Assembly: GCA_964630905.1 (NCBI GenBank)
Contig: CAZVWR010000002.1
Location: 23,531-87,530, forward strand
Source: an uncultured Spirochaetales bacterium
Lineage (GTDB): Bacteria > UBP6 > UBA1177
Direction: 5' to 3'
DNA length: 64,000 nt
Position numbers and translations under genes: made by a program. The notes under the pieces were generated by a model that saw only the letters and a program-made list of their open reading frames with translations, was not told the origin of the DNA and ran no database searches. Shown here in pieces: positions 3,288 to 52,005 of the stretch. Position 1 is the stretch's first letter; the number at the start of each line of letters is the position of its first letter.

Positions 3288-3674
3288 ATGACAACTGCAC
3301 CAAAAAAAGTTTTTCTTGTTGACGATGATGCAGACATCATTGCACAGAACAAAATGGTTCTTGAAGCTAAAGGTTTTATTGTTGAAGATGCGGCAAGTGC
3401 AAAAGAAGCAGGGGAAAAGATCGGAAAATTCAGACCTGACATCATCATTCTCGATGTAATGATGGAACATCCCAGAGCAGGACTTGAATTTGCAGGAAAG
3501 ATCGCAACGGAAAAAGGAATGCCGAAGATCCCGATCATTCTTCTTACAAGTGACGGACACAACCCGGCATGGCTGAGCGAACCGAACTTTACATGGGTAA
3601 AAATAGCTCAGGTACTTGATAAACCGGTCACTCCCGAAAAGCTTGTTGAGACAGTCAACAAAATACTCAAGTAA
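3288..3674 (+). CDS. Stand-alone receiver domain protein
   Basis: VFLVDDDADI...DIIILDVMME; 128 aa. Confidence 0.8.
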   Translation: MTTAPKKVFLVDDDADIIAQNKMVLEAKGFIVEDAASAKEAGEKIGKFRPDIIILDVMMEHPRAGLEFAGKIATEKGMPKIPIILLTSDGHNPAWLSEPNFTWVKIAQVLDKPVTPEKLVETVNKILK

Positions 3675-3710
3675 CAAAGATCTGTTCTTTCAGTAATTCA
3701 TAAAAAAGAT

Positions 3711-3790
3711 CAAATTCAATTCTGAAGATCAACTCACCTGAAAACTGGAAAAGGTGGAATTTATTTAGGGTGTTGGGGTGAATTTGAATA
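3711..3790 (+). repeat. Intergenic repeat copy A (core ...tgaaaactggaaaaggtggaatttatttagggtgttgggg)
   Basis: Aligns with copies at 4801, 5411, 6108, 7073 and a partial copy at 10401, all in the same orientation. Confidence 0.8.
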
Positions 3791-3857
3791 AGAAAAACAT
3801 GTGTGGGAATGGGGGCACTTTCGGGTTTCAATCGCTAAGAATTAAGCTTTTGGTTTT

Positions 3858-4694
3858 TTAACCTTCGTCTGATTCGTCCTGATTTGTGGAAGAGAGAAAA
3901 TTCTGAGTCGAAATAATGCTTTTGCCAATCTCTTTTTCTGTTTCTTTTCTCGCTTTTCCGGCTACAGAGCCGCCTCTTTTTGCGACTTTTTTGTTTTTCT
4001 CAAATGTTTCCGGTTTTTCTTTTTTTGATATTTCAGTCGTCACTTTCTCTCCAAGCATGGTGAAGATAAGTTCAAAATCTGTCATATGATCCCGAAGATT
4101 CTGAGTTTTTTTCGTCAATCCTTTTAAATCTTTATATTGAGCAGGTGTCAGCCCGAAAGTCGCTTTTGAGATTTCAGCCGTCAGAATTGCAAAATCATTT
4201 TCTGAATCTATCCCTCTTTCTTTCCATTCATCAGTCAGATTCTGGCGAATTGCGATTCCACGAAGCCGCTTGTCAATCCAGTCTTTGGGATAACCTTTCT
4301 TTTCGTAAAGCTCTTTCATCCTTTCCTGAGCAAGTTCCGGGTTTTCAATTTCCTGAACTCTCTCGTATCCGACTTGAGCGAGCCACTGTTTGAAAGGTTC
4401 AGCTTTCGGTGATGGAATAGACTGAATTATCCTAAACATGTTTTTTGTATTGGCACAATCTGTTTCTCTCATTTTTCCATCAGGTGCCACAAGTTTCAAC
4501 CGTCGACAAATTGTCGACAGTTCAACTTCAGCATCAATAAGCTCTCTTTTTTTCATTTTAAACCAATAATCTCTGGCATTTAAACTGTCTGTCAATATTG
4601 CGATAATATCAACAACAGAAAAATACCATTCCTCATCATGCCAGATCCTTCTAATCTTCTTTCCTTCAAAAACGATCATCTTCTTTTCACTCAT
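3858..4694 (-). CDS. Bro-N domain protein (DinD / phage antirepressor-like)
   Basis: N-terminal RRIWHDEEWYFSVVDIIAIL Bro-N signature; 278 aa. Confidence 0.6.
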   Translation of the reverse strand: MSEKKMIVFEGKKIRRIWHDEEWYFSVVDIIAILTDSLNARDYWFKMKKRELIDAEVELSTICRRLKLVAPDGKMRETDCANTKNMFRIIQSIPSPKAEPFKQWLAQVGYERVQEIENPELAQERMKELYEKKGYPKDWIDKRLRGIAIRQNLTDEWKERGIDSENDFAILTAEISKATFGLTPAQYKDLKGLTKKTQNLRDHMTDFELIFTMLGEKVTTEISKKEKPETFEKNKKVAKRGGSVAGKARKETEKEIGKSIISTQNFLSSTNQDESDEG

Positions 4695-4800
4695 GATTTT
4701 ACCTCAGCAAAGATTATCTTAAATTTGAATTCTAAATAATCTATGAAGAGCATAACATAAATGCTCCCTTTTCTCAAGGATTCTTTTCTTTATTAAAAAG

Positions 4801-4872
4801 AAATTCAGGAAAATTTTCTTACTCGCCAGAAAACTGAAAAAAGTGGAATTTGTTTAGGGGTTTGGGGGTCAT
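4801..4872 (+). repeat. Intergenic repeat copy B
   Basis: aaattcaggaaaattttcttactcgccagaaaactgaaaaaagtggaatttgtttagggg. Confidence 0.85.
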
Positions 4873-4885
4873 TATGGTTCTGAAA

Positions 4886-5101
4886 TCAGACCAGTTTTTT
4901 AAGTTGTTCGAGAGTTATTCCGACTTTTTTGATGATGTTGTTGAGTGTTCCCTTTTTTAGTTCATCGTGAACTGGAACAATGACAGAGATATGGCGGTCA
5001 AGATTGTACATAAAAATGTGGCTGCCACGCTGATGATCAACCACAAAACCGAGCCGCCTTAAAGCTCTAACTACCTCCCGCCCTGAAAATGTTTTGCTCA
5101 T
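4886..5101 (-). CDS. hicA: HicA-family mRNA interferase toxin
   Basis: [33 protein letters not shown]... YcfA/HicA fold; internal Met start, overlapping hicB stop by 4 nt. Confidence 0.75.
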
Positions 5102-5325
5102 AATCTGACCATTAGTTCTCTTACTTTTTTCTTTGTTCCGGTTTTGATCTGATTGAGTTTTTCGAGCCCTTCGAGATAGCACTTAATTGCTTCGGATGCA
5201 TTACGCAAAGCTTCTTCTTCGGTGTCTCCCTGCGTAAAACAACCGTCAAGCGCCGGAACAGTAACATTGAATCCGCCTTCTTCGGCTTTTTCAAGAACAA
5301 CATTAAATTTCATATCACGCCTCAC
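5098..5325 (-). CDS. hicB: HicB-family antitoxin
   Basis: [43 protein letters not shown] (UPF0150/HicB N-terminal domain). Confidence 0.75.
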
Positions 5326-5410
5326 TTCAAAATGTTAGCGGTAAATAGTTTACTCGTGGACAGCACCATTGTCAAATCAAAGAGTGCGAGGAAGTGAGTG
5401 GAAGAGCAAG

Positions 5411-5518
5411 AAAACAGATAAGATTTTCTTACTCTCTGGAAAACAAAGGAAAGTGGAGTTGATTTAGGGGGTTGGTGGTTAATTACAGTCACATTTTTAT
5501 ATATAAATATTGCTCCCT
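5411..5518 (+). repeat. Intergenic repeat copy C with 3' extension agtcacatttttatatataaatattgctccct
   Basis: Core and extension both shared with copy E (7073-7178). Confidence 0.85.
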
Positions 5519-6052
5519 GACCCCTATGTTTCCTTTCTCCCTGACCCCTATGTTTCCAATTGCTTCCTGCTCATAAAAATTTCTTGCTTCTTTGTTTGCA
5601 ACCCTCATCAATGCTCGATAATGTGACCATGACAATTTTGAAGAAAACAGTAATCGATCAAATTCGCCACCTGACGGGTAGCTTTTTAAATGCTCTAAAC
5701 CGGATTGGCTACCTGACGGGTAGCTTTTCCTCGGCAACCGGTCTGCGAATGAAATATAAAACTGTCTAAAATTTTTAATGTTTGCAAGAGAAAATCCTTC
5801 GCCATATCTTTTTGTAAGGTTTTCAGAAAGCTCAAACACAACTTTTTTTCCATATTCAGCTCTCTCCTCTCCGCCTTGAATCTCTTCAACTATTTCTCGA
5901 CCGATAAGCCAGTAGGCAGTCACCATGTTGCTGTTGACAGCACGGATAACATTGTTCCTTGCTTCCTCAAGAATCAAGACAACACGATCAAAAATATCGT
6001 TCTTCAAGTTACTGACTTTTTTCATCAAAACCCTCCGACACACAAAATTCAT
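5489..6052 (-). pseudogene. yhcG: YhcG-like (DUF1016 N-terminal domain) gene truncated at the repeat junction; C-terminal PD-(D/E)xK nuclease half missing
   Basis: LSWSHYRALMRV...EARNFYEQEAIGN matches the YhcG N-domain. The reading frame runs into repeat copy C and ends ...GNIGVREKGNIGVREQYLYIKM* across a 21-bp tandem duplication. Confidence 0.6.
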
Positions 6053-6107
6053 CGCTTCTTATATTCAATGTCCAGAGTCAATATATCTAATGCCAGATTA
6101 ATTTACA

Positions 6108-6180
6108 AGAAATTCAGAAAAATTATCTTACTCACCAGAAAACTGGGAAAAGTGGAGTTTATTTATAGGGTTGGTGGACA
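6108..6180 (+). repeat. Intergenic repeat copy D
   Basis: aaattcagaaaaattatcttactcaccagaaaactgggaaaagtggagtttatttatagggttggtgg. Confidence 0.85.
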
Positions 6181-6193
6181 AGGTTACGAATGT

Positions 6194-6568
6194 TTATGAT
6201 GAATACTTTGCCTTTTTTTCTGCAACTATCCAGGACTTTTCTTTGTGTTTGAATTTTTCAGTATTTTTATCAATAGGTATTATCTCAATTTTTATATCGA
6301 AGATATTTTGAAGTTTTGCTATTGTTTTCATATTAAGAAATTTGTCTGACCCGAAAAGCTGAGTCACGAAAGCTTTAGATGTTTCCATTTTTTCTGAAAG
6401 ATCTTTTCTGCTCATTCCTCTCTTATCCATAATATCCTGAATTTTAAAGAGAAACTCCATTTGTATCTTCATTGCATCAAATTCAATCTTCTCATTATTA
6501 TCAATGGGGGTGAGTGCAAACTTGAGAGCTTCCTCGATTTTGAGCTTTTTTCTTTCACTTGAACTCAT
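6194..6568 (-). CDS. HTH (XRE-like) DNA-binding protein, probable antitoxin
   Basis: MSRKDLSEKMETSKAFVTQLF helix-turn-helix; overlaps upstream ORF by 14 nt. Confidence 0.55.
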   Translation of the reverse strand: MSSSERKKLKIEEALKFALTPIDNNEKIEFDAMKIQMEFLFKIQDIMDKRGMSRKDLSEKMETSKAFVTQLFGSDKFLNMKTIAKLQNIFDIKIEIIPIDKNTEKFKHKEKSWIVAEKKAKYSS

Positions 6569-6992
6569 ATTCGTATCCTCCGATCGTTTTATATTTCTGT
6601 GTCAACCTTTTATCATTTCTTGAACTTTGCTTTTTTTCAACTGAAACAACGACAACCTTTTTATCTGAAAAGAAAAATTCTTTGCATATCACTCTTCTTT
6701 TACCGAATTTCATTGCTGTCAAGCTCCATTCTTTATACTCCATTTTATAGTGCATATCATCGTATCTGTTGTTCATTACAACCGTCAATATAGCAAAAAG
6801 TTTTTTTCTGTTTTCCATAAAAAGCTCTGAAATTTCCGCTTCATTTTTCAAATCAACATAAATTTCAACTTTTGGCTTCTCTTTTTCAAAAACTTCAATG
6901 AACTTGTTAATTTCCGCAGTAATGTTGCGGCAACTTCTCTTAATAGTTAACTGATTGGTTAATTTTTTGCAAGTTTTTTCTTCTCTACTCAT
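6555..6992 (-). CDS. Hypothetical protein, possible toxin partner of the downstream HTH (higBA-like gene order)
   Basis: 145 aa; overlaps the HTH gene. The only family resemblance is weak and low-confidence: the C-terminal stretch GKRRVICKEFFFSDKKVVVVSVEKK loosely resembles the RelE/HigB motif. Confidence 0.3.
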   Translation of the reverse strand: MSREEKTCKKLTNQLTIKRSCRNITAEINKFIEVFEKEKPKVEIYVDLKNEAEISELFMENRKKLFAILTVVMNNRYDDMHYKMEYKEWSLTAMKFGKRRVICKEFFFSDKKVVVVSVEKKQSSRNDKRLTQKYKTIGGYEYEFK

Positions 6993-7072
6993 TTAGTTAA
7001 ATCCGTTTATTCAAATCAACAAAATTCTTCTGATTAGAAATTTATATCTATTAGTTATTTATTGCAATAAAA

Positions 7073-7178
7073 CATTCATAATATTTTCTTACTCACCAAA
7101 AAAACTGAAAAAAGTGGAATTTGTTTAGGGTGTTGACGGCAACTAAAGTCACATTTTTATATATAAATATTGCTCCCT
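7073..7178 (+). repeat. Intergenic repeat copy E with the same 3' extension as copy C
   Basis: atattttcttactcaccaaaaaaactgaaaaaagtggaatttgtttagggtgttgacggcaactaaagtcacatttttatatataaatattgctccct. Confidence 0.85.
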
Positions 7179-7221: not shown

Positions 7222-7927
<706 letters not shown>

Positions 7928-8837: not shown

Positions 8838-9344
8838 CTACAAACTTTTCTCAATTTCTTTGATCAGTTCAGGGTGTTTTTCACTTTTAAATATTATTCT
8901 GCCTGTTCTGTCGAGCATGAACATCTGCGGAACCACTGCGGAACCGTTCTTGTCTACTATGCCGAACTTTTTTCCGGTTATGGAATATTTGTCAAAAACG
9001 ACTGGGAACGAAATCTTCTGTTTTTTGAAAAACTCTTTTATTTTCACTAATTCTGCCGATCTGTCTTCTTCAACCGGAATGACTATAACAACAAATTTAA
9101 GTCCTTTCGCTGAATACTTGCGGTATACTTCATCCCATTTTGAAATTGATTTTTTACATGGCTCGCAATGTATTGAAAAAAAATCAGCGACCATGATCTT
9201 TGTATCATCTTTTTCAAGTTCCTTCTGAGATGAGTATAAAACATCATCAAGGGTATAAAGATCGAACTTTTTGACATCTTCATCACCGCTCATCCGGAAA
9301 GACAGAAACACAACTGCTATCATCAGAAAAATCCGTTTTTTCAT
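8838..9344 (-). CDS. Thioredoxin-fold thiol:disulfide oxidoreductase (TlpA/ResA/redoxin family)
   Basis: Signal peptide; FFSIHCEPCKK (CxxC) active site. Confidence 0.75.
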   Translation of the reverse strand: MKKRIFLMIAVVFLSFRMSGDEDVKKFDLYTLDDVLYSSQKELEKDDTKIMVADFFSIHCEPCKKSISKWDEVYRKYSAKGLKFVVIVIPVEEDRSAELVKIKEFFKKQKISFPVVFDKYSITGKKFGIVDKNGSAVVPQMFMLDRTGRIIFKSEKHPELIKEIEKSL

Positions 9345-9429: not shown

Positions 9430-10341
9430 TTAAAGCAGTTTTGTCACCATCTTCGTAACATCAACTTCCATTTTGGAAAATCCGAACCATTTTCTGCCGA
9501 GATCTTTCAATGACGCGCCGAAATGATAGAGGTCGCGATTGTCAATTATCATGAATCTGTCATGGGAATGATTGAATTCTTTTATTTCAGCGGGCGGGAA
9601 CTGTTCATTGAATTTCTTTATGTCAAGTTGAAGTTGTTTTGAAGGGTTTTTGGTGAGAATTTTGAGCACGACCCCATCTTTCCGTTTTGAAAAAAGTGTG
9701 AGGACGGTATCATCAACATAATTGTCAATGAGGATGATCGACTTTTCAGCGGAACGGACAATATCCGAAACAAATTTGTGTGCGTCAAAAACCTGACCGT
9801 CAAAAAAGATGCCTTGCTTTGGCTGAATTTGCTTTGATTCAAGGGCTGAAAGCACTTTTTCGATTTTATTATCGGTTTCTATCTGCTTAACTTCCACAAA
9901 GGCAAGTCTTTGGAAAATCTCCGCATTTGATGTAATAAAATGCCTCATCTTAACAAAAGCGTCCATTATGAGAATGCTTACATCAATTGCAGTTTTGCTT
10001 TTCAAAACGGCTGAAAGCATTGCCACACCTTGTTCAGTGAAAACATATGGAACATATTTTCTATACTGACCTCTCCCACCCAACAATTTAGTCAATGATT
10101 TCGGATTGTTATTCTCTAAGGTCACAAATTGTGACCTTAGAGAACTATATTCATTCTCGGTAAGCCGGAATCTAAATCTTTCTGGAAAGCGTCCTTCATT
10201 TCTTTTTACAGCCTGATTTAAAACCTTTGTGTCAACTTGATATAGCTCAGCAAGATCACTATCCAGCATCACTTGCATTCCACGAATTGTGAAAATCCTT
10301 CTTTTAATCTCATCAATCTTTATCAGCTCGTTTTCAACCAT
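9430..10341 (-). CDS. ORF6N-domain protein (phage antirepressor-type DNA-binding N-domain)
   Basis: IRGMQVMLDSDLAELYQVDTKVLNQAVKRNEGRFPERFRFRLT matches ORF6N; 303 aa. Confidence 0.65.
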   Translation of the reverse strand: MVENELIKIDEIKRRIFTIRGMQVMLDSDLAELYQVDTKVLNQAVKRNEGRFPERFRFRLTENEYSSLRSQFVTLENNNPKSLTKLLGGRGQYRKYVPYVFTEQGVAMLSAVLKSKTAIDVSILIMDAFVKMRHFITSNAEIFQRLAFVEVKQIETDNKIEKVLSALESKQIQPKQGIFFDGQVFDAHKFVSDIVRSAEKSIILIDNYVDDTVLTLFSKRKDGVVLKILTKNPSKQLQLDIKKFNEQFPPAEIKEFNHSHDRFMIIDNRDLYHFGASLKDLGRKWFGFSKMEVDVTKMVTKLL

Positions 10342-10400
10342 CTTTCAACTCCTAAATTTTAGTCACCGATAGATAATGCAACAATTAGATTAAATATGCA

Positions 10401-10440
10401 AGAAAACGAATAAGATTATCTAACTCGTCCCGGAAAGGCT
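10401..10440 (+). repeat. Partial copy F of the 3.7-7.2 kb intergenic repeat
   Basis: aagattatctaactcgtcccggaaagg aligns with aagattttcttactctctggaaaacaaagg of copy C. Confidence 0.5.
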
Positions 10441-10445: not shown

Positions 10446-10742
10446 TTACAGAATATCGAGTCCGATCGTGGCTTTCTCGGACACACCTATGAAAAGGGTC
10501 ACCTGAACTCCGTTTGACTGGAAAAGTTTTTTCACTTCGCTATAGAGAACATTTTTCAATTCCTCTTTATCTGCAAACTTATATTCCCCGATAAAGGTGA
10601 ACCGCGGAAGATCGCGAAGGGTGTCTCCTTCTGTTTTGATCCTGCTGTAAAGCCCTATCTCCTCGAGTTCTCCGTTGAAAAAATCGTGGTTGTAATTTTC
10701 TGCCTTGATCACTTCATAACTTAAAAAAGCGAAATAATGCAT
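10446..10742 (-). CDS. Hypothetical small protein (98 aa)
   Basis: ORF only; no motif recognised. Confidence 0.4.
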   Translation of the reverse strand: MHYFAFLSYEVIKAENYNHDFFNGELEEIGLYSRIKTEGDTLRDLPRFTFIGEYKFADKEELKNVLYSEVKKLFQSNGVQVTLFIGVSEKATIGLDIL

Positions 10743-16950: not shown

Positions 16951-19436
16951 CAGAAATCTCCTCTAACGCCGACAGTTCCCAATACCGGATAGAGATAAAG
17001 TCCGCCACTTTCCGAGTAGTCACTGTTATAGATCACATCCATTTTTGCATTGGAACCCTTTATGTCACCATAGATCCCGAGAATGAAATCCTTAAAGAAC
17101 AGTGCATATTCAATTCTGAAACCGTATCCGACTGAATTGGAAAGTCTTATTCCGTTTATGTCATCCTCTTCAAATACCGGCACATAAATTCCGGCATCTG
17201 CCAGATATGTTGTTCCGGCAAGTCCGGTCATCAATGTTCCGGATGCTACTGAAATATCACCGGAAACAGTCCAGTTCTTGAGGAAATTATATGAAAGCGC
17301 CGCTTTTAAAATATGGGGAATATCGCCATCAGCCCTTCTTTCTTCCAATGATTCGCTGTCAGTTCTCAAACTTTTAACAAACGAATAAGATACCCAGCCT
17401 GTCACTTCCTTGTTTGAATATCCTGCTTTTATCTCGGTTCCTGCCGCCCAACCCTTTCCTGTGTTTTCATAATCGGTGATCTCTTCAGGATTTCTTCTTA
17501 TAAGGTCATAAAAATACTTGTAAAATCCAGCGACATCGGCTGTAAAACCTTCATATTCAAACGCAAATCCGAGTTTTGCATGAACAGCCTTTTCATAGTT
17601 AAGAGCTTCGTTACCGAGCTTATGGAAAACAATATCATACTGCGGTCTTTTTGAATACATTCCGCCGTTTGCATAAACTTTCATCCATTTAGTGATATCA
17701 TACGAAAGGTAAAGTCTCGGATCGATCGAACCTGACCACTCCTTTTTATTGTGAAAATCTCCCGAAACATATACTCCCGGAACAGCTTCAAACCCTTTGG
17801 CAAAGAAACGGTATTTCAAGTAAAGTGACGGGTGGATATATCCAATGTTATCAGCCTGAGAAAGCATCCCTGACGATCTTATCATACCCGGTTCGCCTTC
17901 AAGCGGAAGGAGAAGGAACGATGTATCTGTCGAAAATATTCCGGCGGCAAAAACAACCCCGAGGTCAAATCTGTTGCCTTCATTTATCTTAAAACTAAGA
18001 TGTTCTTCTATTGTTCCGCGATTGTCGATCGTCGTTAATTTTTCCCCTTTGAAAACATGATAATTAAAATCTGAAAGGACAAAACTTCCTGTAAATCTTG
18101 AATTCATTGATGCTGTTTTATATATGTGATCACCTTTTGCAAGGATGAACATCATTTCAGGGGAAAGCGATTCGCCAAGAACAGGAACATTTTTGTTTTT
18201 CAAAGTTGAAAGATGATAAAGGTTGTCCCTTGCTCCTGCAATTGTAAGAACTATTGAATTCTTACAGTCAATTTCATACAGATATCTGATGTGTCCGCTG
18301 AGATTACCCTGTGAAACTATTGAATTTTCATCATCATATGCAACTCTTGTGAAAAGATCGTCAGCTCCGAAATCAAATGAGATGGAAAAATAATTGGATT
18401 TAGCAAGAGGACCTTCCGCCATCAGCGAAACTCCGAACATGCTCAGATCAAATGTCCCCCCTATGTTGTCGGTTCTAGGGTCCTTGAAGAACAGATTGGT
18501 CACTCCTCCGATGGAATCACCAAGCTCTGGACCGAAATTTCCTGAATAAATATAAGTGCTTTTAAGAACATTCTGATCTATTACACTTTTTTCTGTCAGC
18601 ATGTGATGAGAAAAGGGAACTTTCACTCCATCAATGTAATAACTGTTCTCATTTGAACTGCTGCCGCCCATTATTAAGCCGGTTCCGTAAGCAGTTGAAG
18701 GAAGTCCGTTATAGACAAAGGGCATTTTAGATGTCGAGTTTTCGTTCTTATATCTGATGAGTTTTCTTTTTGCCGCTTCGATCGGTCCTGTTATGTCTGT
18801 CCCCGATTCTCTCTCTTCAAGCTGCTGCGGAGAATCAAAATAATACTGCTCAACTTTTTTCTTTTTTTCCTCAACCGGCTGTGTTTCAACAGGTTTTGCC
18901 GCCTCAACAGGCTTTGCCGCCTCAACAGGTTTTGCCGCCTCAACAGGCTTCTTAACCTCAACAGGCTTTGCCGCCTCAACAGGCTTCTTCACATCAACAG
19001 GCTTTGCCGCCTCAACAGGCTTCTTCACCTCAACAGGCTTTGCCGCCTCAACAGGCTTTGCCGCCTCAACGGGCTTTGCCGCCTCAACGGGCTTTGCCGC
19101 CTCAACGGGCTTTGCCGCCTCAACAGGTTTTGCCGCCTCAACAGGCTTTGCCGCCTCAACGGGCTTTGCCGCCTCAACAGGTTTTGCCTTTTTCTCCTTT
19201 ACCGGTTTCTTTTTGCCGGCAGTTATCGGAACAAGTTCAGGTGCTGCAACCACCGGTTCCTCTTTCTTTTCTTCTATTTTATCTTCTTTCTTCTCTTCTT
19301 TCTCTTCCTTCTTTTCCTCTTTTTCCACCTTTTCTTTGTCTTCAGTTTTTTCAGGTGCAAACTTCTTTTTCTGTGCACTCAGGAACAAAGGAAGACAAAA
19401 AATAAGAACCAGAAATAAAATAACGATCCTTTTCAT
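16950..19436 (-). CDS. Outer-membrane beta-barrel protein with N-terminal Lys/Glu-rich and (AAKPVE)n repeat region
   Basis: Signal peptide MKRIVILFLVLIFCLPLFLSA; ~20 PVEAAK repeats; alternating amphipathic strands; C-terminal ...RGDF (terminal Phe). Start set at ATG 19436 (SD aggagg). Confidence 0.6.
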   Translation of the reverse strand: MKRIVILFLVLIFCLPLFLSAQKKKFAPEKTEDKEKVEKEEKKEEKEEKKEDKIEEKKEEPVVAAPELVPITAGKKKPVKEKKAKPVEAAKPVEAAKPVEAAKPVEAAKPVEAAKPVEAAKPVEAAKPVEAAKPVEVKKPVEAAKPVDVKKPVEAAKPVEVKKPVEAAKPVEAAKPVEAAKPVETQPVEEKKKKVEQYYFDSPQQLEERESGTDITGPIEAAKRKLIRYKNENSTSKMPFVYNGLPSTAYGTGLIMGGSSSNENSYYIDGVKVPFSHHMLTEKSVIDQNVLKSTYIYSGNFGPELGDSIGGVTNLFFKDPRTDNIGGTFDLSMFGVSLMAEGPLAKSNYFSISFDFGADDLFTRVAYDDENSIVSQGNLSGHIRYLYEIDCKNSIVLTIAGARDNLYHLSTLKNKNVPVLGESLSPEMMFILAKGDHIYKTASMNSRFTGSFVLSDFNYHVFKGEKLTTIDNRGTIEEHLSFKINEGNRFDLGVVFAAGIFSTDTSFLLLPLEGEPGMIRSSGMLSQADNIGYIHPSLYLKYRFFAKGFEAVPGVYVSGDFHNKKEWSGSIDPRLYLSYDITKWMKVYANGGMYSKRPQYDIVFHKLGNEALNYEKAVHAKLGFAFEYEGFTADVAGFYKYFYDLIRRNPEEITDYENTGKGWAAGTEIKAGYSNKEVTGWVSYSFVKSLRTDSESLEERRADGDIPHILKAALSYNFLKNWTVSGDISVASGTLMTGLAGTTYLADAGIYVPVFEEDDINGIRLSNSVGYGFRIEYALFFKDFILGIYGDIKGSNAKMDVIYNSDYSESGGLYLYPVLGTVGVRGDF
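18880..19200 (+). repeat. About 18 tandem copies of an 18-bp unit (gccgcctcaacaggcttt and variants) inside the OMP gene
   Basis: Directly visible periodicity; encodes the AAKPVE repeats. Confidence 0.9.
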
Positions 19437-29622: not shown

Positions 29623-31956
29623 TCAATTACAATCTTCGTGGAACGGACACACCAGCATTCTGCCGACATAAGGTTTCCTATGATCAGTGCCGTCAAAAAA
29701 TGCCGTTATCACCAGATATTCATAATCATCTTTTTTTACAAGAACATGTTGATCAATCCGAGGAAATATGGTTCTTGTCGAGAACTGGCGCAGTTCAATT
29801 TTTTCCCAAATATTTTTAGTGGTGTCTTTTAAAAATATATCTTGAGCATTTCCCATGATATATCTGTTGTCATCCACTACGACATGGAACAACACACTAT
29901 CTCCTTGTTTAAGCAATTGATCCGGCAAATCATCAACCTTCTCCCATGTGGAAAGCAGCTCATTATAACAGAAAATGTCATCGGCATCGGCATCGGCTAA
30001 ACATTGGCCTTTTGCCCAACCTGCACCGGCATAGCAAATCATATCTGAAAAGAAAAACATAGCCCCTCCTGCACGAGGTGGATTTGGAAGAGAATCCATT
30101 GTGTTCCATGTCTGACTGGCGGACTCTATATATGCACAATTTCCATATTGAGTACAGTTATTGCTGAAGCCACCGCATGCAATCAGTTTTGATTTGTCGG
30201 CATTAGTTATTGATGAAACTCCATGAGCATTCCATGTTAAAGAATCTGCATTGTTCCAGGATGTTCCATCGAAATACCTTACAGCTTTTGATCCAGTAAA
30301 GCCGGTGTAGCCGCCGATTGACCAAAGCTTATTGTCAAATTGGAAAAGAGAATGCCCGTAAGTGCCTGTAGTCATTGCTGGTCCATCACTCCAGATCATT
30401 GTATTTAAATCTAATATCTTATGATCCTGCAATGCCTGCGAGTAATTACCACCTGTGCAATGGATCTTTCCTGTCACAGTATAGAATGCACAAGAAGGCA
30501 ACGACCAGTCGACAGCATTAGTGGTTAGCGTTCCCGGATATAAAACATCTGTATCGTGTAATTCAAGCCAGACAGAAAAAGGAAGAGGATCTCCATTCCA
30601 TGGTGCGGAATCTAAAAACACTAAAGAATCTTTATTCAATGTCGTCGAAATCCCCGACAAATCCCATTTTATACAAGAATCGTTCAATTCACAGGTTTGA
30701 AGATTTATTGGCAAGCTGTTTTCGAGATTAATTTCATAAGCACTTTTTCTATCACATGATACTAATATTTTATCTTCAGCAAGAAAAAGTGGTGATGAAG
30801 AAAACGGGGTATCATCAACTGAACAATCCAAAATAAGGTTTTTTGTGTCGCTACTGGTATCACAATAATACAGTTGCGTTATACCTGAATATCCCGCAAG
30901 CTTATTATAATGAAATGCAAACCTGTTCCCTGAATCCGAAACTGCTCCGAATGCTTTTGAGTGACCATCGGTTGAAGCACAAGGAAGAGCTGTCTGGGTT
31001 CCCCATGAAGATACAGTATCCCCGCTTAAACTTAATTCACCTATATAATTATCAGGAACCCAGTTGGCTGGCCAGAAACTTGCAAAGATACTTTCCCTCT
31101 GAGAAACAGCGCTGAAATTTTCGCTAGCCGTACAGCCCATAGCTTTGGTACTAAGAACTGTCCCACCTTCCACGCTCAAACTCCACAACGAAAGGGCACG
31201 ATTTGAAGTATTTCCGCAAGCACCGCCCGATGTTGTATAATAACCTAATACTAAACGGTCTTCCGAAAGGAAGTCACAACGACTTAATTCGGTTGATACA
31301 GGGGTTAGCTGACTAATATTAAGCTCATTCAGTTTTTCTACAACTCCTTTTGTGCTCCATATTTCCATTCTTTCCGGCACAAGATCTTTTCTTAAAAGTG
31401 CCATTTTGTCCCCTAATGGACTCAAACAAGCAACATAGGAAAACCTTGCAGGAACACTGAAAGATAATAATTTTGAAATCTCTGCTCCTCGCTTGGTCAA
31501 CATATATATGCTTCTTATATCATCCTTGTCATGTGCAAACAAAACTATCCTGTCAGATCCATCAGAAATTGTGTCGCTATCGTCTGTTTCAGTTACATCA
31601 TCGTCCAATTCGATATCGTCTGTGTCTACACCGATAATATCATCATCACCCGAATCTCCACTGTCTCCTGAATTTCCTGAATCACCAGTATTTCCAGTAT
31701 CTTCATCACCTGCCGTATTGCCAGTATCTCCGGTGTTTCCTGAATTTCCTGAATCGCCAGTATTTCCTGTATTTCCTGAATCATCATCATTTTTTGCTTC
31801 ATCGGGTTTGACACATTTCCCGTCATCACAGACAAGTCCTTTTCTGCATGTACCGTTGCCGAAACATGCCGCACCTTCTTTACCCACCTCTATATCTTTA
31901 AAATTCTCACACCCGGCAAAAACAAAAATAATCATTAAAAAATATAGATATTTCAT
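29623..31956 (-). CDS. Lipoprotein with Cys-rich N-module, (D/N/S)TG repeat linker and C-terminal Kelch / beta-propeller repeats
   Basis: Lipobox [55 protein letters not shown] linker. Repeated W..GG/ACGG Kelch-like blades. ATG at 31956 (ORF track start is a GTG). Confidence 0.65.
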   Translation of the reverse strand: MKYLYFLMIIFVFAGCENFKDIEVGKEGAACFGNGTCRKGLVCDDGKCVKPDEAKNDDDSGNTGNTGDSGNSGNTGDTGNTAGDEDTGNTGDSGNSGDSGDSGDDDIIGVDTDDIELDDDVTETDDSDTISDGSDRIVLFAHDKDDIRSIYMLTKRGAEISKLLSFSVPARFSYVACLSPLGDKMALLRKDLVPERMEIWSTKGVVEKLNELNISQLTPVSTELSRCDFLSEDRLVLGYYTTSGGACGNTSNRALSLWSLSVEGGTVLSTKAMGCTASENFSAVSQRESIFASFWPANWVPDNYIGELSLSGDTVSSWGTQTALPCASTDGHSKAFGAVSDSGNRFAFHYNKLAGYSGITQLYYCDTSSDTKNLILDCSVDDTPFSSSPLFLAEDKILVSCDRKSAYEINLENSLPINLQTCELNDSCIKWDLSGISTTLNKDSLVFLDSAPWNGDPLPFSVWLELHDTDVLYPGTLTTNAVDWSLPSCAFYTVTGKIHCTGGNYSQALQDHKILDLNTMIWSDGPAMTTGTYGHSLFQFDNKLWSIGGYTGFTGSKAVRYFDGTSWNNADSLTWNAHGVSSITNADKSKLIACGGFSNNCTQYGNCAYIESASQTWNTMDSLPNPPRAGGAMFFFSDMICYAGAGWAKGQCLADADADDIFCYNELLSTWEKVDDLPDQLLKQGDSVLFHVVVDDNRYIMGNAQDIFLKDTTKNIWEKIELRQFSTRTIFPRIDQHVLVKKDDYEYLVITAFFDGTDHRKPYVGRMLVCPFHEDCN

Positions 31957-32840
31957 CACCACCTCCCCTGTAAACCGGTCACAAATCCATCTCCGGAAGG
32001 AATAACATAAAAAGAGACATGCTCATTCTTCCTTTCCGGCGCTACTGCATCAAGAATAAGAAGTGTTATCCCCCCCGCAATGAAAACAGAGCCGGCGACA
32101 TAACCGCCTATCGTAAGACCTCTAAACATTTTAAACTTATCTTCGTCATCGCTTTTTCCCGTTTTTATAAACGCATCCCTTGATGAATTCATCATCACAT
32201 TGGATATGGCTCCCCCGGCAAGAACAAGAGCTCCCGCAACTGTAAATGTCCAGCCAGTCGCTTTTTTCCATGAAACCGGTGCCTTTTCATTCTTTTCAGC
32301 TTTTTTTTCGGATTGCGGCTTAACTTCTTTCACTTCAACGGTCTTTGTTTCAGCCGGCTTCGGCTGACCGAAAAGTTCAATTACAAGAGGTGTCAACGAT
32401 TCTATAAGTGTATTCATATCACCTTTGAATTTTTTTGTAACTCTTGATTTTACCTCGACTTTTTTAACATCAACGAGCTGGATCGTTATGACCCAGTAGT
32501 CTCCCATCTTCGAGAGTATTCCCGAAATTGAAAACGGGGCTCCGAGCGTTGCACCCACTTCCGCAATGCATGAGTTGTCGTCTATGCCGCAGGATGCTCT
32601 TATTGTTTCTCCATCAATGACACTTCTAACTTCTGATTCACTGATCACAACCATTTTGGAAACCTGCTCGATCTCACTCGTAAGGATAGAAGTTACAGTG
32701 ATAGATTCCTTTTCAGTTACGCCCGTCTGCGGCTTCAGATTCCAGACAACGATCTTGTCTGCGAACAGATTTCCGGTGAACAGTGTGAGCATTGCAAAAA
32801 CGATTAAAACTCGTGTCATTTTTATCTCCGCTTCAACCAT
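31956..32840 (-). CDS. Secreted/membrane hypothetical protein
   Basis: Signal peptide MTRVLIVFAMLTLFTGNLFA; C-terminal hydrophobic segments. The true start is probably the internal Met; my reading of the upstream coordinates disagreed with the ORF track by 12 nt. Confidence 0.4.
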   Translation of the reverse strand: MVEAEIKMTRVLIVFAMLTLFTGNLFADKIVVWNLKPQTGVTEKESITVTSILTSEIEQVSKMVVISESEVRSVIDGETIRASCGIDDNSCIAEVGATLGAPFSISGILSKMGDYWVITIQLVDVKKVEVKSRVTKKFKGDMNTLIESLTPLVIELFGQPKPAETKTVEVKEVKPQSEKKAEKNEKAPVSWKKATGWTFTVAGALVLAGGAISNVMMNSSRDAFIKTGKSDDEDKFKMFRGLTIGGYVAGSVFIAGGITLLILDAVAPERKNEHVSFYVIPSGDGFVTGLQGRW

Positions 32841-32987: not shown

Positions 32988-33356
32988 GTGTTTGTGAATA
33001 CAGACATTATTTCAGGAGGAAACTATGAAAGAGATCGCGAGTACTATTGCAGAGAGGGGTGCGGGTTACTGTTCAAATCCGGATCTGCTGGTTTTGTAAC
33101 GCTCACGGTGAACGGCAACAACTGCCTGATTTCAAAGCGGGTCATCTTTATCGGGACTCTCAACAAGTCAATCGTCCATCCGAGAGAGGTGTTCGCTGCG
33201 GCCATTTCAGATCATGCGGCGGGGATCGTCCTGGTGCACAACCATCCAAGCGGCAACCCCGAACCGAGCAATGAGGACATCATCATGCCCATGAGAATTG
33301 AAAACATCAGAAGCCGGAAAGCTGCCACAGAGCAGAAAGCGACAAAAGCCGCGTGA
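32988..33356 (+). pseudogene. radC: radC-like JAB/MPN gene remnant fused in frame to the tail of a dnaN-like gene
   Basis: IVLVHNHPSGNPEPS JAB motif retained; ends ...IIMPMRIENIRSRKAATEQKATKAA, identical to the C-terminus of the 59098-60324 protein. Confidence 0.75.
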
Positions 33357-35540: not shown

Positions 35541-35870
35541 ACCTCATCATAATTTAAACACAACGGAAGTATTTTAATAAATTTAAAACAGAATAGAAGT
35601 TTTCCCCACCCATAAACAAAATTCCCCCTTCCCCTCATAAACCACAACCTTCGTTTCTATCTGCCTGGGTCGGAAAGATATGAAAGAAAACGGTGAATGA
35701 TGCGGTAAATTTTCATTCCGCACAAGTATTATGCCTCTATGAAAAAGTATGTCAAAAAAGTGAAATTCAGAACCTCAATGGATTTTTATTAACATAGAGT
35801 AACTTTTATTTACAATTATAGTGCAGATGGATATATTGTGGTGATTGAATTACCTCTATGGAGATTTCGT

Positions 35871-40106: not shown

Positions 40107-40109
40107 TAT

Positions 40110-41096: not shown

Positions 41097-41731
41097 CAGT
41101 TCCCGCTAATCCAAAGATTTATCACATAACTCATGTTGAAAACCTCGCTTCAATTATTTCTGACGGTTGTATCTGGTCTGATGCAAAAACTGTACATAAT
41201 CAAGGAGTTGTCAAAATTGGGATGTCAGAAATCAAGCGGAGAAGGTTGTATGAAAATCAACTCACAAGTCATCCCGGTCTTTATGTCGGGGAGTGTGTTC
41301 CGTTTTATTTCTGTCCGCGATCTATTATGCTCTTCCTGTTTTATATGAACAATCATAAAGATATAACATACAAAGGAGGACAGGAGCCAATCATTCATCT
41401 TGAAGCAGATTTAAAAAAAGTGGTAAATTGGGCTGAACAGAACAACAAAAGGTGGGCTTTCACTCTTTCCAATGCAGGAGCATCCTACTTTGAAGACAGA
41501 AAAAGTCTTGAGAATCTGGATGAACTTGACTGGAATGCCATTAATTCCACAAGCTGGCATGAATGCAGAGAAAAGAAGCAGGCAGAATTTCTCATTGAGG
41601 AAAAATTTCCATGGAGTCTTATTGATAGAATTGGAATATATTCTGAAAATTATTATAATAATGTAATCCGTTCTTTTAATGGAAACAGTCATCGTCCAGT
41701 GGTTGAGATTAAAAGAAGCTGGTATTATTGA
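41093..41731 (+). CDS. darT: DarT-like ssDNA ADP-ribosyltransferase toxin (DUF4433)
   Basis: IYHITHVENLASIISDGCIWS ... YVGECVPFYFCPRSIMLF matches the DUF4433/DarT signature; ATGA overlap with upstream stop. Confidence 0.7.
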   Translation: MTVPANPKIYHITHVENLASIISDGCIWSDAKTVHNQGVVKIGMSEIKRRRLYENQLTSHPGLYVGECVPFYFCPRSIMLFLFYMNNHKDITYKGGQEPIIHLEADLKKVVNWAEQNNKRWAFTLSNAGASYFEDRKSLENLDELDWNAINSTSWHECREKKQAEFLIEEKFPWSLIDRIGIYSENYYNNVIRSFNGNSHRPVVEIKRSWYY

Positions 41732-41739
41732 GAGGAACT

Positions 41740-47414: not shown

Positions 47415-47425
47415 GGGTGGTAATT

Positions 47426-48979: not shown

Positions 48980-49078
48980 CAAATTCCACCCCTCCCGATT
49001 TTCATCAATTCTTGTTGGGTATACCCCACATAAGACACAAAAAGCCCAATGATTTCAAGAAAGCGTTCCGCCAGATCT

Positions 49079-51231: not shown

Positions 51232-52005
<774 letters not shown>

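What the first reader, a model, noticed from the sequence alone, without database searches (positions are those of the whole stretch)
3711..7178. Cassette-like array: five to six copies of a conserved 60-110 bp repeat, each immediately 3' of a co-directional accessory gene
Copies sit at 3711-3790, 4801-4872, 5411-5518, 6108-6180 and 7073-7178, with a partial copy at 10401-10440. All are in one orientation and share the core aaattcagRaaaatttTCTTACTCRCCAGAAAACTGRAAAAAGTGGAATTTRTTTAGGGTGTTGG; two also share a 32-bp extension (agtcacatttttatatataaatattgctccct). Each lies 6-70 bp beyond the stop of a minus-strand gene. The gene cargo is typical of chromosomal integron or CALIN arrays: a Bro-N protein, hicBA, a truncated yhcG, a higBA-like pair and a small lipoprotein. 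No integron integrase is in the window and the repeats lack clear attC R-box inverted repeats. The unit may therefore be a different recombination site, a shared 3'-UTR or small-RNA element, or the target of an unknown recombinase.
Basis: seen in the sequence. Interest (0 to 1): 0.7.

Follow-up and report, generated by a model that had tools for sequence, protein, structure and literature searches.

The report
Integron-like defence-gene cassette array, new repeat
A narrow lineage of Cloacimonadota (sludge bacteria) keeps small defence and toxin-antitoxin genes as cassettes separated by a previously undescribed ~78-bp directional repeat, and close strains carry the same cassettes in a different order, so it behaves like an integron without having an integron's site or enzyme.

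Summary
Five full copies and one half copy of a ~78-bp direct repeat lie at 3.7-7.2 kb and 10.4 kb, and nowhere else in the 64 kb. All have one orientation and sit between co-directional minus-strand genes.

It is not attC. It has no RYYYAAC/GTTRRRY pair, no hairpin on either strand, and there is no intI in the window. It is also not dif-like, a MITE/REP or a structured RNA.

The repeat has two conserved blocks, ATTTTCTTACTCGCC and AAAGTGGARTTTATTTAGGGTGTTGG, around a purine-rich variable centre. It lies just upstream of the sigma-70-like promoter of the next gene.

The repeat recurs in 14 sludge-metagenome contigs and two MAGs (one labelled Cloacimonadota), always in this arrangement. It is absent from the orthologous locus of relatives whose neighbouring regulator gene is 89% identical or less.

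A strain 98-99% identical to the window has the order flank-TA-BroN instead of flank-BroN-hicAB-yhcG'-TA. Four cassettes seen in several contexts keep their promoter-side repeat and change their other neighbour. Identity changes cluster at ...GGGTG|TTGG.

The cargo is dominated by PADLOC candidate defence families (PDC-S02, PDC-S05, PDC-S13, TIR, SIR2-like) and TA pairs.

Best reading, at about 0.5: a new integron-like cassette platform whose enzyme acts in trans and is not identified. Main rival: passive promoter-bearing repeats reshuffled by gene conversion.

The parts
3708..3779 (+). Repeat copy 1, the array-terminal copy. It has the centre and block R but no promoter module. Its left flank is chromosomal, next to the response-regulator gene 3288-3674. 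A y-type 3' module follows to about 3830.
   Evidence: The same flank plus core is conserved in L146 and L163, with a different cassette next to it.
3858..4694 (-). Cassette 1: Bro-N protein, 278 aa (PADLOC PDC-S13). Promoter-like site at 4777-4749.
   Evidence: Pfam Bro-N 9e-13; PDC-S13 1.8e-121; promoter scan.
4792..4868 (+). Repeat copy 2 (block L, centre, block R).
4886..5310 (-). Cassette 2: hicA (4886-5104) and hicB (5098-5310). Promoter-like site TTGACA-17-TAAACT at 5375-5347.
   Evidence: Pfam HicA_toxin 8e-20 and HicB_lk_antitox 1.4e-12.
5405..5551 (+). Repeat copy 3 (5405-5477), x-type 3' module (5481-5518) and a tandemly duplicated CTGACCCCTAT motif (5517-5527, 5541-5551).
5489..6052 (-). 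Cassette 3: truncated yhcG (DUF1016_N only; PADLOC PDC-S02). The likely start is ATG at 6025, preceded by GGAGGG. Promoter-like site TTGTAA-17-TATATT at 6108-6080. The full-length 375-aa allele is in L134.
   Evidence: Pfam 1.2e-33.
6099..6177 (+). Repeat copy 4.
6194..6992 (-). Cassette 4: a 145-aa protein of unknown family (6555-6992) and a 124-aa HTH protein (6194-6568). This is a putative TA-like pair. The same pair sits at the first array position in strain L146.
   Evidence: Pfam HTH_26; PDC-M64B/C.
7068..7178 (+). Repeat copy 5 (7068-7139) and x-type module (7141-7178).
7222..7911 (-). Lipoprotein with a (G-D/N-T/S)n run, to the right of the last full repeat. It may be the original right flank or a last cassette.
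   Evidence: L147 carries a 234-aa allele.
9430..10341 (-). ORF6N protein, 303 aa (PADLOC PDC-S05). It is a separate insertion between the thioredoxin-like gene and the 98-aa gene, and is absent at this place in L068.
   Evidence: Pfam ORF6N 1.7e-32; PDC-S05 7.5e-123; L068 comparison.
10392..10435 (+). Half copy 6: promoter module and block L only (…AAGATTATCTAACTCG). It abuts the stop codon of the 98-aa gene 10446-10742.
   Evidence: The analogous half copy lies next to an M18 aminopeptidase gene in L137.

Best explanation
This is a lineage-specific, integron-like gene-cassette array that uses a new kind of site.

The site. It is a ~78-bp directional double-stranded repeat. On the + strand it reads CAAGAAA-N-ATTTTCTTACTCGCC (block L), then a purine-rich variable centre of about 15 nt, then AAAGTGGARTTTATTTAGGGTGTTGG (block R).

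The cassette. Written on the + strand, a cassette runs from TTGG, through an optional 50-nt x or y 3' module ending in CTGACCCCTAT, one or two minus-strand genes and their own sigma-70-like promoter, to the repeat. Each cassette therefore carries its site on its promoter side.

The proposed mechanism. Cassettes are cut out and re-inserted at the outer edge of block R (…GGGTG|TTGG…). This includes insertion at the array-terminal copy next to the chromosomal flank, which acts like an attI. A second exchange zone in block L (around CTTA|CTCGCC) accounts for the half sites at array ends. It also accounts for swaps of the segment between the two zones, where they are visible only in the variable centre, in otherwise identical DNA.

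The enzyme, a recombinase or a site-specific nuclease, acts in trans and is not encoded next to the array.

Shown here: the repeat and its anatomy; that the site stays with the promoter-side cassette; cassette permutation and gain or loss between close strains; clustering of identity changes at two places; the defence/TA cargo. Inferred: that a dedicated enzyme rather than general recombination does this, and the exact cleavage points.
For: 1. Anatomy. There are 5 full direct copies plus 1 half copy, array-specific within 64 kb. Two conserved blocks flank a variable centre in 17 distinct copies. Promoter-like sites lie between the repeat and the start codon.

2. The same repeat occurs in 14 metagenome contigs and 2 MAGs. 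In every case the flanking genes are co-directional and on the strand opposite to the repeat as written.

3. Strain L146 is 98-99% identical to the window. Its order is flank-[J1]-TA-[J2]-BroN-[J3+x], against flank-BroN-hicAB-yhcG'-TA-[x]lipoprotein in the window.

4. Four cassettes were seen in two or more contexts: TA, Bro-N, higBA (L131/L135/L139) and yhcG (window/L134). All keep their promoter-side repeat and change their other neighbour.

5. Change-point analysis puts the switch from 96.5-100% to about 50% identity at +39 to +44 from the A of ACTC in 4 pairs: w1/J1, w4/J1, w2/J3 and L135b/L139. That position is GGGTG|TTGG. In J1 the exchange is confined to at most 5 nt.

6. The window's copies are only 67-84% identical to each other. 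Their longest shared exact runs are 8-12 nt, except one pair with 30 nt. From established knowledge, this is below what RecA-dependent exchange normally needs.

7. Block-L zone. L127 and L137 are identical for hundreds of bases on both sides but differ at 8 positions between ACTC and GTGGA. The same is seen for w5 against J2. Half sites at array ends break at or near ACTC.

8. The array is not ancestral. The locus of relatives whose regulator is 89% identical or less has a terminator and other genes and no repeat. The 95% relative L163 has the terminal copy.

9. GC falls to 0.31-0.37 inside the array.
Against: No recombinase is next to any of the roughly 20 arrays or fragments examined. The only recombinase in the window, at 50371-50916, belongs to a family widespread outside this lineage, and its close homologues sit in loci without the repeat.

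The repeat has no convincing dyad symmetry of the kind tyrosine or serine recombinase core sites show.

Identity changes occur at three or more places: block L, the edge of block R, and the CTGACCCCTAT end of the x/y module. One case lies at a start codon (L136 against w4). Patchy swaps of this kind are also what gene conversion among repeats produces. One identical 50-nt y module lies between unrelated flanks in L094 and L135.

The key permutation rests on one short-read contig, L146, although its novel J2 centre and 1-2% SNPs argue against a chimera.

No circular cassette or empty attI-like site was observed. Genome-wide distribution in the source organism could not be examined.
Confidence: 0.5

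Rival explanations
1. The repeats are passive, promoter-bearing intergenic repeats. In this reading the repeat is a shared upstream regulatory and promoter module that spread by duplication. Cassette gain, loss and reordering result from general recombination, short-patch gene conversion and DNA uptake, as in Neisseria minimal mobile elements or transformation-driven shuffling. No dedicated enzyme is involved.
For: The conserved unit runs exactly through the -35/-10 of the next gene. The same promoter and 5'UTR are attached to unrelated genes: yhcG in the window and L134, ORF6N in L136. Module combinations are mosaic, with left types A/B and right types x/y/none. Centre patches and an identical y module between unrelated flanks look like conversion tracts. 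No recombinase was found.
Against: The copies are 67-84% identical, with exact runs of mostly 8-12 nt. The J1 exchange lies in at most 5 nt of shared sequence. Junctions recur at the same position in independent comparisons. The strict single orientation, the terminal half sites and the occurrence at three or more unrelated chromosomal loci all need an insertion mechanism.
Confidence: 0.25
2. It is a true chromosomal integron remnant (CALIN), with very divergent attC sites served by an IntI encoded elsewhere in the genome.
For: The polarity on the + strand resembles attC. There is an inverse-core-like TTCTTAC (ATCTAAC in copy 6) at the left. There is a core-like GTTGGGG/GTTGGGC at the right, where the main exchange maps and is compatible with G|TT. 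A strain difference places a cassette at the terminal, attI-like copy. The cargo resembles integron cassettes (bioRxiv 10.1101/2024.07.02.601686).
Against: No RYYYAAC...GTTRRRY pair occurs in any of the six intergenic regions on either strand. Single-strand folding gives 0 to -5.3 kcal/mol with z-scores of -0.5 to +1.8, which is no better than shuffles. The consensus fold is -3 to -4 kcal/mol, with a compensatory change at only 1 predicted pair on the minus strand and none on the plus strand. Genes are antisense to that polarity and each has its own promoter. There is no intI in 64 kb. Cloacimonadota is not among the phyla listed as carrying integrons in PMC8618304.
Confidence: 0.05
3. It is purely a regulatory element. 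Blocks L and R would be operator or activator sites for one regulator that co-controls the island, and the element has no role in DNA rearrangement.
For: It sits at a fixed position upstream of promoters. It has two conserved blocks and phased A-tracts between them.
Against: About 45 conserved positions shared next to unrelated genes in several genomes indicate common descent, not convergent operators. This reading explains neither the permutation, nor the half sites, nor the terminal copy, which has no gene downstream in that orientation.
Confidence: 0.1
4. It is a dispersed selfish repeat (MITE/REP/BIME-like) or a structured small RNA or 3'-UTR element that happens to be clustered here.
For: It is a short conserved intergenic repeat, and short-read contigs often break at it.
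Against: There are no terminal inverted repeats, target duplications or stable hairpin. It has a single orientation. No copy lies elsewhere in 64 kb. There is no Rfam hit at gathering thresholds or at E<=1, and next to no covariation: one compensatory change among 22 predicted pairs. A complete Cloacimonadales chromosome (OY782831) has only a chance match to the pattern, inside a coding-like, non-repeat context.
Confidence: 0.05

Closest known systems
Integron cassette arrays and CALINs (attC sites, IntI)
   Same: Tandem, co-oriented, mostly single-gene or TA cassettes are each bounded by a directional site that travels with the cassette. Order and content differ between close strains. A terminal site next to the chromosomal flank receives different cassettes. 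The cargo is enriched in TA and anti-phage genes, as reported for sedentary chromosomal integrons (bioRxiv 10.1101/2024.07.02.601686).
   Different: The site has no R''/R' core pair and does not fold, so it cannot use the single-stranded attC pathway. It sits on the promoter side (5') of its gene, not on the 3' side. Every cassette brings its own promoter. No IntI is present. Copies within one array are only 67-84% identical.
Tandem accretion of recombinase-less elements at one att site (for example psi-SCC elements in SCCmec composite islands; from general knowledge)
   Same: Direct repeats separate successive inserted units. Units lacking a recombinase would be moved in trans. Hybrid or half sites occur at array ends.
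   Different: The units here are 0.5-1 kb single genes, not islands of many kb. The repeat is 78 bp with two exchange zones, rather than a 15-20-bp core. Several chromosomal loci are used. No CcrAB-like or other recombinase was seen.
Xer-dependent dif modules (pdif modules of Acinetobacter plasmids; from general knowledge)
   Same: Small modules, often TA genes, are bounded by recombination sites and reshuffled without a nearby dedicated recombinase.
   Different: There is no 11-6-11 dif-like sequence; best matches are at shuffle level. All sites here are direct, whereas pdif modules are flanked by oppositely oriented sites.
Putative mobile promoters, and 'insertion with long target duplication' of restriction-modification genes (Matus-Garcia et al. 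2012; Nobusato et al. 2000; recalled from memory, not checked here)
   Same: Near-identical promoter regions lie upstream of unrelated genes. Selfish or defence genes are flanked by long direct repeats.
   Different: Here the repeats form ordered arrays with recurrent junction positions and cassette permutation. The flanking copies of one cassette are too divergent to be a fresh target duplication.
Neisseria minimal mobile elements and transformation-driven cassette replacement (from general knowledge; compare PMC12614218 for integrons)
   Same: Different genes occupy the same position between conserved sequences in different strains.
   Different: In minimal mobile elements, exchange uses long homology in the flanking core genes. 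Here the junctions lie inside short, divergent repeats, and the same cassettes occur at unrelated loci.

Membership tests
Integron / CALIN (attC array) | attC ends with inverse core RYYYAAC (R'') and core GTTRRRY (R'), complementary to each other and 50-150 nt apart | tested here: not met
   A regex screen of all six intergenic regions on both strands found no R''/R' pair. The only hits are single: ATCTAAC in copy 6, and GTTAAAT 33 nt into the screened IG5 segment, outside the repeat. Near matches only: TTCTTAC and GTTGGGG.
Integron / CALIN (attC array) | attC single strand folds into an imperfect hairpin (R and L boxes, extrahelical bases) | tested here: not met
   ssDNA folding of core and extended copies on both strands gives 0 to -5.3 kcal/mol with z-scores of -0.5 to +1.8. 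RNAalifold gives -3.0 and -4.0 kcal/mol, with one compensatory change among 8 predicted pairs on the minus strand and none among 14 on the plus strand.
Integron / CALIN (attC array) | Integron integrase (IntI) next to the array (integron) or elsewhere in the genome (CALIN) | tested here: not met
   There is no IntI in 64 kb. Array cargo and flanks, 35.8-48.4 kb and most ORFs of 48-64 kb were scanned with Pfam; ORFs at 12.5-35.5 kb were screened only by eye, apart from 5 that were scanned. The only recombinase is a 181-aa catalytic-domain-only protein at 50371-50916. None is in the related loci. The rest of the genome is not testable with these tools.
Integron / CALIN (attC array) | Cassettes are gained, lost and reordered as units bounded at the site | tested here: met
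   L146 against the window; L134 against L137; the higBA, yhcG and Bro-N cassettes in different contexts. Junctions lie at +39 to +44 of the repeat.
Integron / CALIN (attC array) | The site lies 3' of a usually promoterless ORF and moves with that ORF | tested here: not met
   The repeat stays with the downstream gene, on its promoter side, in 4 of 4 cassettes seen in several contexts. Promoter-like sites lie between the repeat and the gene.
Xer/dif (pdif) modules | 28-bp site with 11-bp XerC and XerD arms around a 6-bp spacer | tested here: not met
   Best matches to the E. coli, B. subtilis and Acinetobacter pdif sites are 13-20 of 28, within the range of shuffles.
Xer/dif (pdif) modules | Modules flanked by sites in opposite orientation | tested here: not met
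   All copies are direct repeats.
MITE / REP-type dispersed repeat | Terminal inverted repeats or a stable palindrome; target duplication; copies dispersed in both orientations | tested here: not met
   No local inverted repeats flank the copies. There is no stable fold. There is a single orientation, and no copies outside the array in 64 kb. The genome-wide count is not testable.
Structured small RNA / 3'-UTR element | Conserved secondary structure with covariation, or a match to a described RNA family | tested here: not met
   Rfam gives 0 hits at gathering thresholds. At E<=1 there are only two chance hits, both outside the repeats. Consensus folds are weak, with one compensatory change among 22 predicted pairs.
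Tandem accretion at an att site by a site-specific recombinase (SCC-like composite island) | Units separated by direct repeats, with hybrid or half sites at the ends | tested here: met
   Copy 1 is the flank plus centre and block R. Copy 6 and the L137 terminal copy are the promoter module plus block L, followed by the flank. Internal copies are complete.
Tandem accretion at an att site by a site-specific recombinase (SCC-like composite island) | A cognate recombinase encoded in at least one unit or in the genome | tested here: inconclusive
   None in any array fragment.
Homology-driven cassette replacement (minimal mobile elements) | Exchange through long homology in conserved flanking genes | tested here: not met
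   Junctions lie inside repeats that share mostly 8-12-nt exact runs. The same cassettes occur next to different chromosomal flanks: L068 against L137, and the window against L131.

The most novel reading that the evidence does not exclude
The array is a new class of cassette platform for anti-phage genes that works on double-stranded, non-hairpin sites. It may be driven by the cargo itself. One of the recurrent cargo families would recognise or cut the repeat: the YhcG/DUF1016 PD-(D/E)XK nuclease (PDC-S02), or the ORF6N or Bro-N DNA-binding proteins. Break repair or strand exchange would then copy or move cassettes between repeats, which is 'cassette homing'. This would explain three things: why no classical recombinase is nearby, why short conversion patches centre on the site, and why these three families make up about half of the cassettes seen.
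Probability: 0.2. Interest if true: 0.88.

Novelty: new variant of a known kind. Interest (0 to 1): 0.72.

Why it matters
How defence islands are assembled from single genes is an open question. Integrons are the only well-understood cassette platform, and they depend on folded attC sites and IntI.

This array shows the same population-level behaviour with a different site. Small defence and TA cassettes are bounded by a directional site and reshuffled between near-identical strains. The site is unstructured, linked to the promoter, and has no integrase nearby. The phylum is one in which integrons have not been reported.

If a dedicated enzyme exists, it would be a second, independent solution for stockpiling cassettes. 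It would also give a sequence tag (blocks L and R) for harvesting candidate defence genes from digester metagenomes. If no enzyme exists, the array is a clean natural case of promoter-carrying repeats that organise gene shuffling.

Tried and rejected
- attC membership. There is no R''/R' pair and no hairpin on either strand, for the core or extended versions.
- dif/pdif similarity is at shuffle level.
- Rfam, at gathering thresholds and at E<=1, gave nothing on the repeats. There are no tRNA or tmRNA genes in the window that could serve as att sites.
- Coding potential of the repeat. The + strand reads ...LLARKLKKVEFI*, but 1-nt indels in the centre break the frame between copies.
- The idea that the x and y modules are two orientations of an invertible segment bracketed by the block R end and CTGACCCCTAT. 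Reverse-complement alignments score at the null level. The two modules are weakly related in the same orientation.
- Fresh long target duplication. The copies flanking one cassette are only 67-84% identical.
- A link to the 181-aa tyrosine recombinase at 50371-50916. Its family is 55-65% identical in Bacillota and other phyla. Loci of 85%-identical homologues (L144, L145) have no repeat.
- A viral origin. Three viral-contig scans (core pattern, y-module end, x module) gave only chance hits or none. There was no match in phage records. In plasmid records only the Bro-N coding sequence matched.
- Exact-protein look-ups of the flank proteins, Bro-N, HicA and HicB returned only the window's own arrangement or nothing.
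- The genome-contig scan gave 107 hits. That is close to my own rough estimate of chance (about 140) for the 22-nt degenerate pattern, and only 2 hits were real.
- An attempt to reconstruct the ORF6N insertion (window against L068) as a simple exchange at block L. The right junction fits but the left junction does not.

Full report

Yes. The repeat finder returns one family of five direct copies of 83 nt, at 3700-3782, 4789-4871, 5399-5481, 6098-6180 and 7060-7142. A sixth site at 10398-10426 matches only the left part, at 86% to copy 3. The 32-nt extension is present exactly twice, with none expected.

Degenerate core motifs are far above chance. One gives 6 matches (the 5 copies plus one weak 2-mismatch site at 54 kb) against 0.48 expected, and another gives 4 against 0.11. 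No shuffle reaches either count. A profile built later from 17 distinct copies finds in the whole 64 kb only these five copies and the half copy at 10392-10435. The family is therefore array-specific within the window.

All genes between the copies are on the minus strand. They are:
- Bro-N (3858-4694)
- hicA and hicB (4886-5310)
- a yhcG gene truncated to its DUF1016_N part (5489-6052)
- a 145-aa protein with a 124-aa HTH protein (6194-6992)
- a lipoprotein (7222-7911)

An ORF6N gene (9430-10341) lies beside the half copy.

**2. Anatomy**

Aligning 17 distinct copies gives this + strand consensus: CAAGAAA..ATAA.ATTTTCTTACTCGCC (block L), a purine-rich centre of about 15 nt that varies, and AAAGTGGA.TTTATTTAGGG.GTTGG (block R).

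Read in the sense of the genes, the order is: stop codon, an optional 50-nt module (x or y type, both ending in CTGACCCCTAT), block R, centre, block L, a sigma-70-like -35/-10, a 5'UTR with a Shine-Dalgarno sequence, and the next start codon.

The promoter scan finds such sites upstream of three of the four array cassettes:
- TTGAGA-17-TATGCT before Bro-N
- TTGACA-17-TAAACT before hicB
- TTGTAA-17-TATATT before yhcG'

It also finds TTGCAA-17-TATAAT before the thioredoxin-like gene at 8838-9344, which is not preceded by a repeat. By eye there is a TTGCAA-17-TAAATT before the 145-aa gene. No terminator-like site lies at the repeats.

Copy 1, at the edge next to the convergent response-regulator gene, has the centre and block R but no promoter module. 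Copy 6 has the promoter module and block L, and then runs into the stop codon of the 98-aa gene.

**3. What it is not**

- Not attC. No RYYYAAC...GTTRRRY pair exists in any of the six intergenic regions on either strand.
- Not a hairpin. Single-stranded DNA folds of the core or extended copies reach only 0 to -5.3 kcal/mol, with z-scores from -0.5 to +1.8 against shuffles.
- Not a structured RNA. Consensus folds are -3 to -4 kcal/mol, with one compensatory change among the 22 predicted pairs. Rfam gives nothing at gathering thresholds and only two chance hits elsewhere at E<=1.
- Not dif-like. Similarity to dif or pdif sites is at shuffle level.
- Not a MITE. There are no terminal inverted repeats or target duplications.
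- Not coding. The frame is not conserved between copies.
- No integrase nearby. The window has no tRNA genes and no integron integrase. The only recombinase is a 181-aa catalytic-domain-only tyrosine recombinase at 50371-50916. Its family is widespread in Bacillota and elsewhere at 55-65% identity. Loci of 85%-identical homologues lack the repeat.

**4. Distribution**

A 22-nt degenerate pattern hit 107 stretches in 185,579 representative genomes. By my own rough estimate from the pattern's degeneracy and the collection's size, about 140 hits would occur by chance.

Extended similarity exists in only two. One is a Candidatus Cloacimonadota MAG (L094). The other is 'Bacterium Go_SlDig_bin_48' (L068), which is syntenic with window 8.8-12.5 kb at 92-95% identity.

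A complete Cloacimonadales chromosome has only a chance match to the pattern, in a non-repeat, coding-like context.

A stricter 45-nt gapped pattern found 15 metagenome contigs, 14 of them real. Those with descriptive record names are activated-sludge assemblies. Viral contigs, phage records and plasmid records gave nothing beyond chance, apart from Bro-N coding similarity.

Short-read contigs frequently end in the repeat, as expected for a multi-context repeat.

The orthologous locus was examined through orthologues of the response regulator:
- At 89%, 86% and 79% identity, the regulator gene is followed by a GC-rich hairpin plus T run and by unrelated genes, and no repeat is found even at E<=10.
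- At 95% identity (L163), the same flank and terminal copy are present, followed by a different y-type sequence.

The array is therefore recent and lineage-specific, not conserved synteny. GC drops to 0.31-0.37 within it, against 0.40-0.45 in the flanks.

**5. Cassettes move**

In every related locus the flanking genes are co-directional in the same sense relative to the repeat. Five comparisons show that the units move.

(a) L146, from JGI sample 3300076029, is 98-99% identical to the window but ordered differently. It reads regulator flank, [J1], 145-aa/HTH pair, [J2], Bro-N, [J3 with x module]. The window reads flank, [1], Bro-N, [2], hicAB, [3+x], yhcG', [4], 145-aa/HTH pair, [5+x], lipoprotein.

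(b) A Gp49-type higBA cassette has three different upstream neighbours, in L131 (Bro-N), L135 (an 83-aa lipoprotein) and L139 (a 101-aa protein). The shared part is 94-99% identical. In L137 the toxin gene alone is deleted.

(c) The yhcG cassette is full length (375 aa) in L134 and has a different upstream neighbour.

(d) L134 and L137 share an M18 aminopeptidase flank, 100% identical over 214 nt. L134 has an additional yhcG cassette between that flank and an ORF6N cassette.

(e) L068 lacks the ORF6N gene and half copy that the window has between the thioredoxin-like and 98-aa genes.

The window's own arrangement is corroborated by independent contigs: L012 and L013 for flank-1-BroN-2, L148 for yhcG'-4-TA-5 at 100%, and L147 for TA-5-lipoprotein. 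The hicAB links are not independently confirmed.

**6. Where the exchanges lie**

A two-rate change-point analysis of all junction pairs places the switch from 96.5-100% identity to about 50% at +39 to +44 from the A of ACTC. This holds for w1/J1, w4/J1, w2/J3 and L135b/L139. That position is the outer edge of block R...GGGTG|TTGG....

By inspection the same holds for w4/L134b, L131/L135b and L094/L135a.

In J1 the sequence is copy-1 type through GGGTG and copy-4 type from TGGAC. The exchange is therefore confined to at most five shared bases.

As a result, the whole repeat stays with the cassette on its promoter side in 4 of 4 cassettes seen in several contexts. The repeat on the 3' side changes.

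A second zone lies at block L:
- L127 and L137 are identical for hundreds of bases on both sides, yet differ at 8 positions between ACTC and GTGGA.
- Window copy 5 and J2 are 100% identical for 258 nt up to ACTCACCA, and then differ in the centre.
- The array-end copies break at or near ACTC.

One scheme reproduces such swaps of the segment between the two zones: a cassette is inserted at one zone and later excised at the other. This is an inference.

A third recurrent break is the CTGACCCCTAT end of the x/y modules. An identical 50-nt y module lies between unrelated flanks in L094 and L135. The motif is tandemly duplicated in the window, L134 and L136. It is also the endpoint of the yhcG truncation.

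**7. General or dedicated recombination?**

The five window copies are only 67-84% identical over the core. They share exact runs of 8-12 nt, with one pair sharing 30 nt. From established knowledge, RecA-dependent exchange normally needs more than 20-25 identical bases.

The J1 junction in at most 5 nt, and the recurrence of one position in independent junctions, favour an enzyme that recognises the site.

Against this, no recombinase is adjacent to any array fragment. The site lacks clear dyad symmetry. There are several break zones. The patch swaps are what gene conversion would give.

I therefore rate a dedicated, trans-acting enzyme at about 0.5, and passive promoter-bearing repeats reshuffled by conversion at about 0.25.

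A variant worth testing is that the cargo itself supplies the activity. YhcG (a PD-(D/E)XK nuclease), ORF6N and Bro-N together account for about half of the cassettes seen.

**8. Cargo**

PADLOC models give full-length matches to candidate defence families:
- Bro-N matches PDC-S13 (1.8e-121).
- ORF6N matches PDC-S05 (7.5e-123).
- yhcG matches PDC-S02.
- The HTH protein matches PDC-M64B/C.

Related arrays add a TIR protein (Pycsar-effector-like), a SIR2-like protein, an AAA_14/DUF4143 ATPase, Gp49/HTH pairs, an RNB nuclease and small lipoproteins.

One PDC-S05 representative was reported to protect E. coli against T4, T5 and T7 (PMC12881386). Sedentary chromosomal integrons have been described as biobanks of anti-phage cassettes (bioRxiv 10.1101/2024.07.02.601686).

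**9. Comparison with known systems**

Functionally the closest is an integron or CALIN. Membership fails on three tested defining features: the core-site pair, the hairpin, and the position and ownership of the site relative to the ORF. IntI is absent from the window.

A 2021 review does not list Cloacimonadota among the phyla with integrons (PMC8618304). No paper in the library combines Cloacimonadota-type names with 'integron' and 'attC'.

SCC-like tandem accretion, pdif modules, mobile promoters, long-target-duplication insertions and Neisseria minimal mobile elements each share one aspect and differ in others. The membership and closest-known tables give the details.

**10. Verdict and caveats**

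This is a real, non-chance, lineage-specific cassette array with a new type of junction repeat. It behaves like an integron at the population level. The mechanism is not established.

Caveats:
- The permutation rests mainly on one short-read contig. Its novel J2 centre and 1-2% SNPs argue against chimerism.
- All comparators are fragments.
- The source genome beyond 64 kb, and hence the genome-wide copy number and any distant recombinase, could not be examined.

Noticed in passing
window 50371-50916 (-) and 54498-58319 (-); L144 10001-14634: A 181-aa tyrosine recombinase with only the catalytic domain (Pfam PF00589, 3.6e-23). It belongs to a family 55-65% identical in Bacillota and Betaproteobacteria. 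In relatives it sits divergently next to a protein of about 1220 aa with no Pfam hit on record, like the 1273-aa protein 3.5 kb away here. This looks like a conserved pair of unknown function, and it is unlinked to the repeat.
   Followed up: partly
window 35838-45827: A type I restriction-modification operon (hsdM, hsdS, hsdR) with four genes embedded between hsdS and hsdR: a PRTase-like gene, a DprA/SLOG-like gene, DarT (5e-62) and a macro-domain DarG.
   Followed up: partly
window 7744-7847, 18814-19245, 51647-51817 (also 29623-31962): Several lipoproteins carry collagen-like (G-D/N-T/S)n runs encoded by 9- or 18-nt tandem repeats. The L147 allele of the 7222-7911 gene is 234 aa rather than 229 aa, which suggests variation in repeat number between strains.
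   Followed up: no
window 5517-5551; L134 and L136 (3' modules): The motif CTGACCCCTAT at the end of the x/y modules is tandemly duplicated (24-nt unit in the window) or triplicated in relatives. It marks the endpoint of the deletion that removed the C-terminal nuclease half of yhcG. It is a third recombination-prone spot, still unexplained.
   Followed up: partly
window 49000-64000: A second accessory island. It holds an Mrr_cat protein (47417-48355), two RadC-like JAB genes (32988-33356 and 58486-59094), a DnaN-like clamp (59098-60324), DUF6933 (60804-61331), an Lcl_C protein (61452-61925) and a cREC_REC receiver (62847-63200).
   Followed up: no
window 6555-6992 (-): The 145-aa partner of the HTH protein has no Pfam or PADLOC hit. 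It travels with the HTH gene as one cassette in the window, L146, L147 and L148, so it may be a new toxin or effector.
   Followed up: no
L137 6045-6500 against L131 321-701: In L137, L127 and L128 the Gp49-type higB toxin gene is precisely deleted, leaving the antitoxin gene under the same promoter. This is a solo antitoxin inside an otherwise 96%-identical cassette.
   Followed up: partly
window 5662-5728: A 25-nt direct repeat, 42 nt apart and 92% identical, lies inside the retained part of yhcG. It encodes a duplicated SYPSG motif.
   Followed up: no
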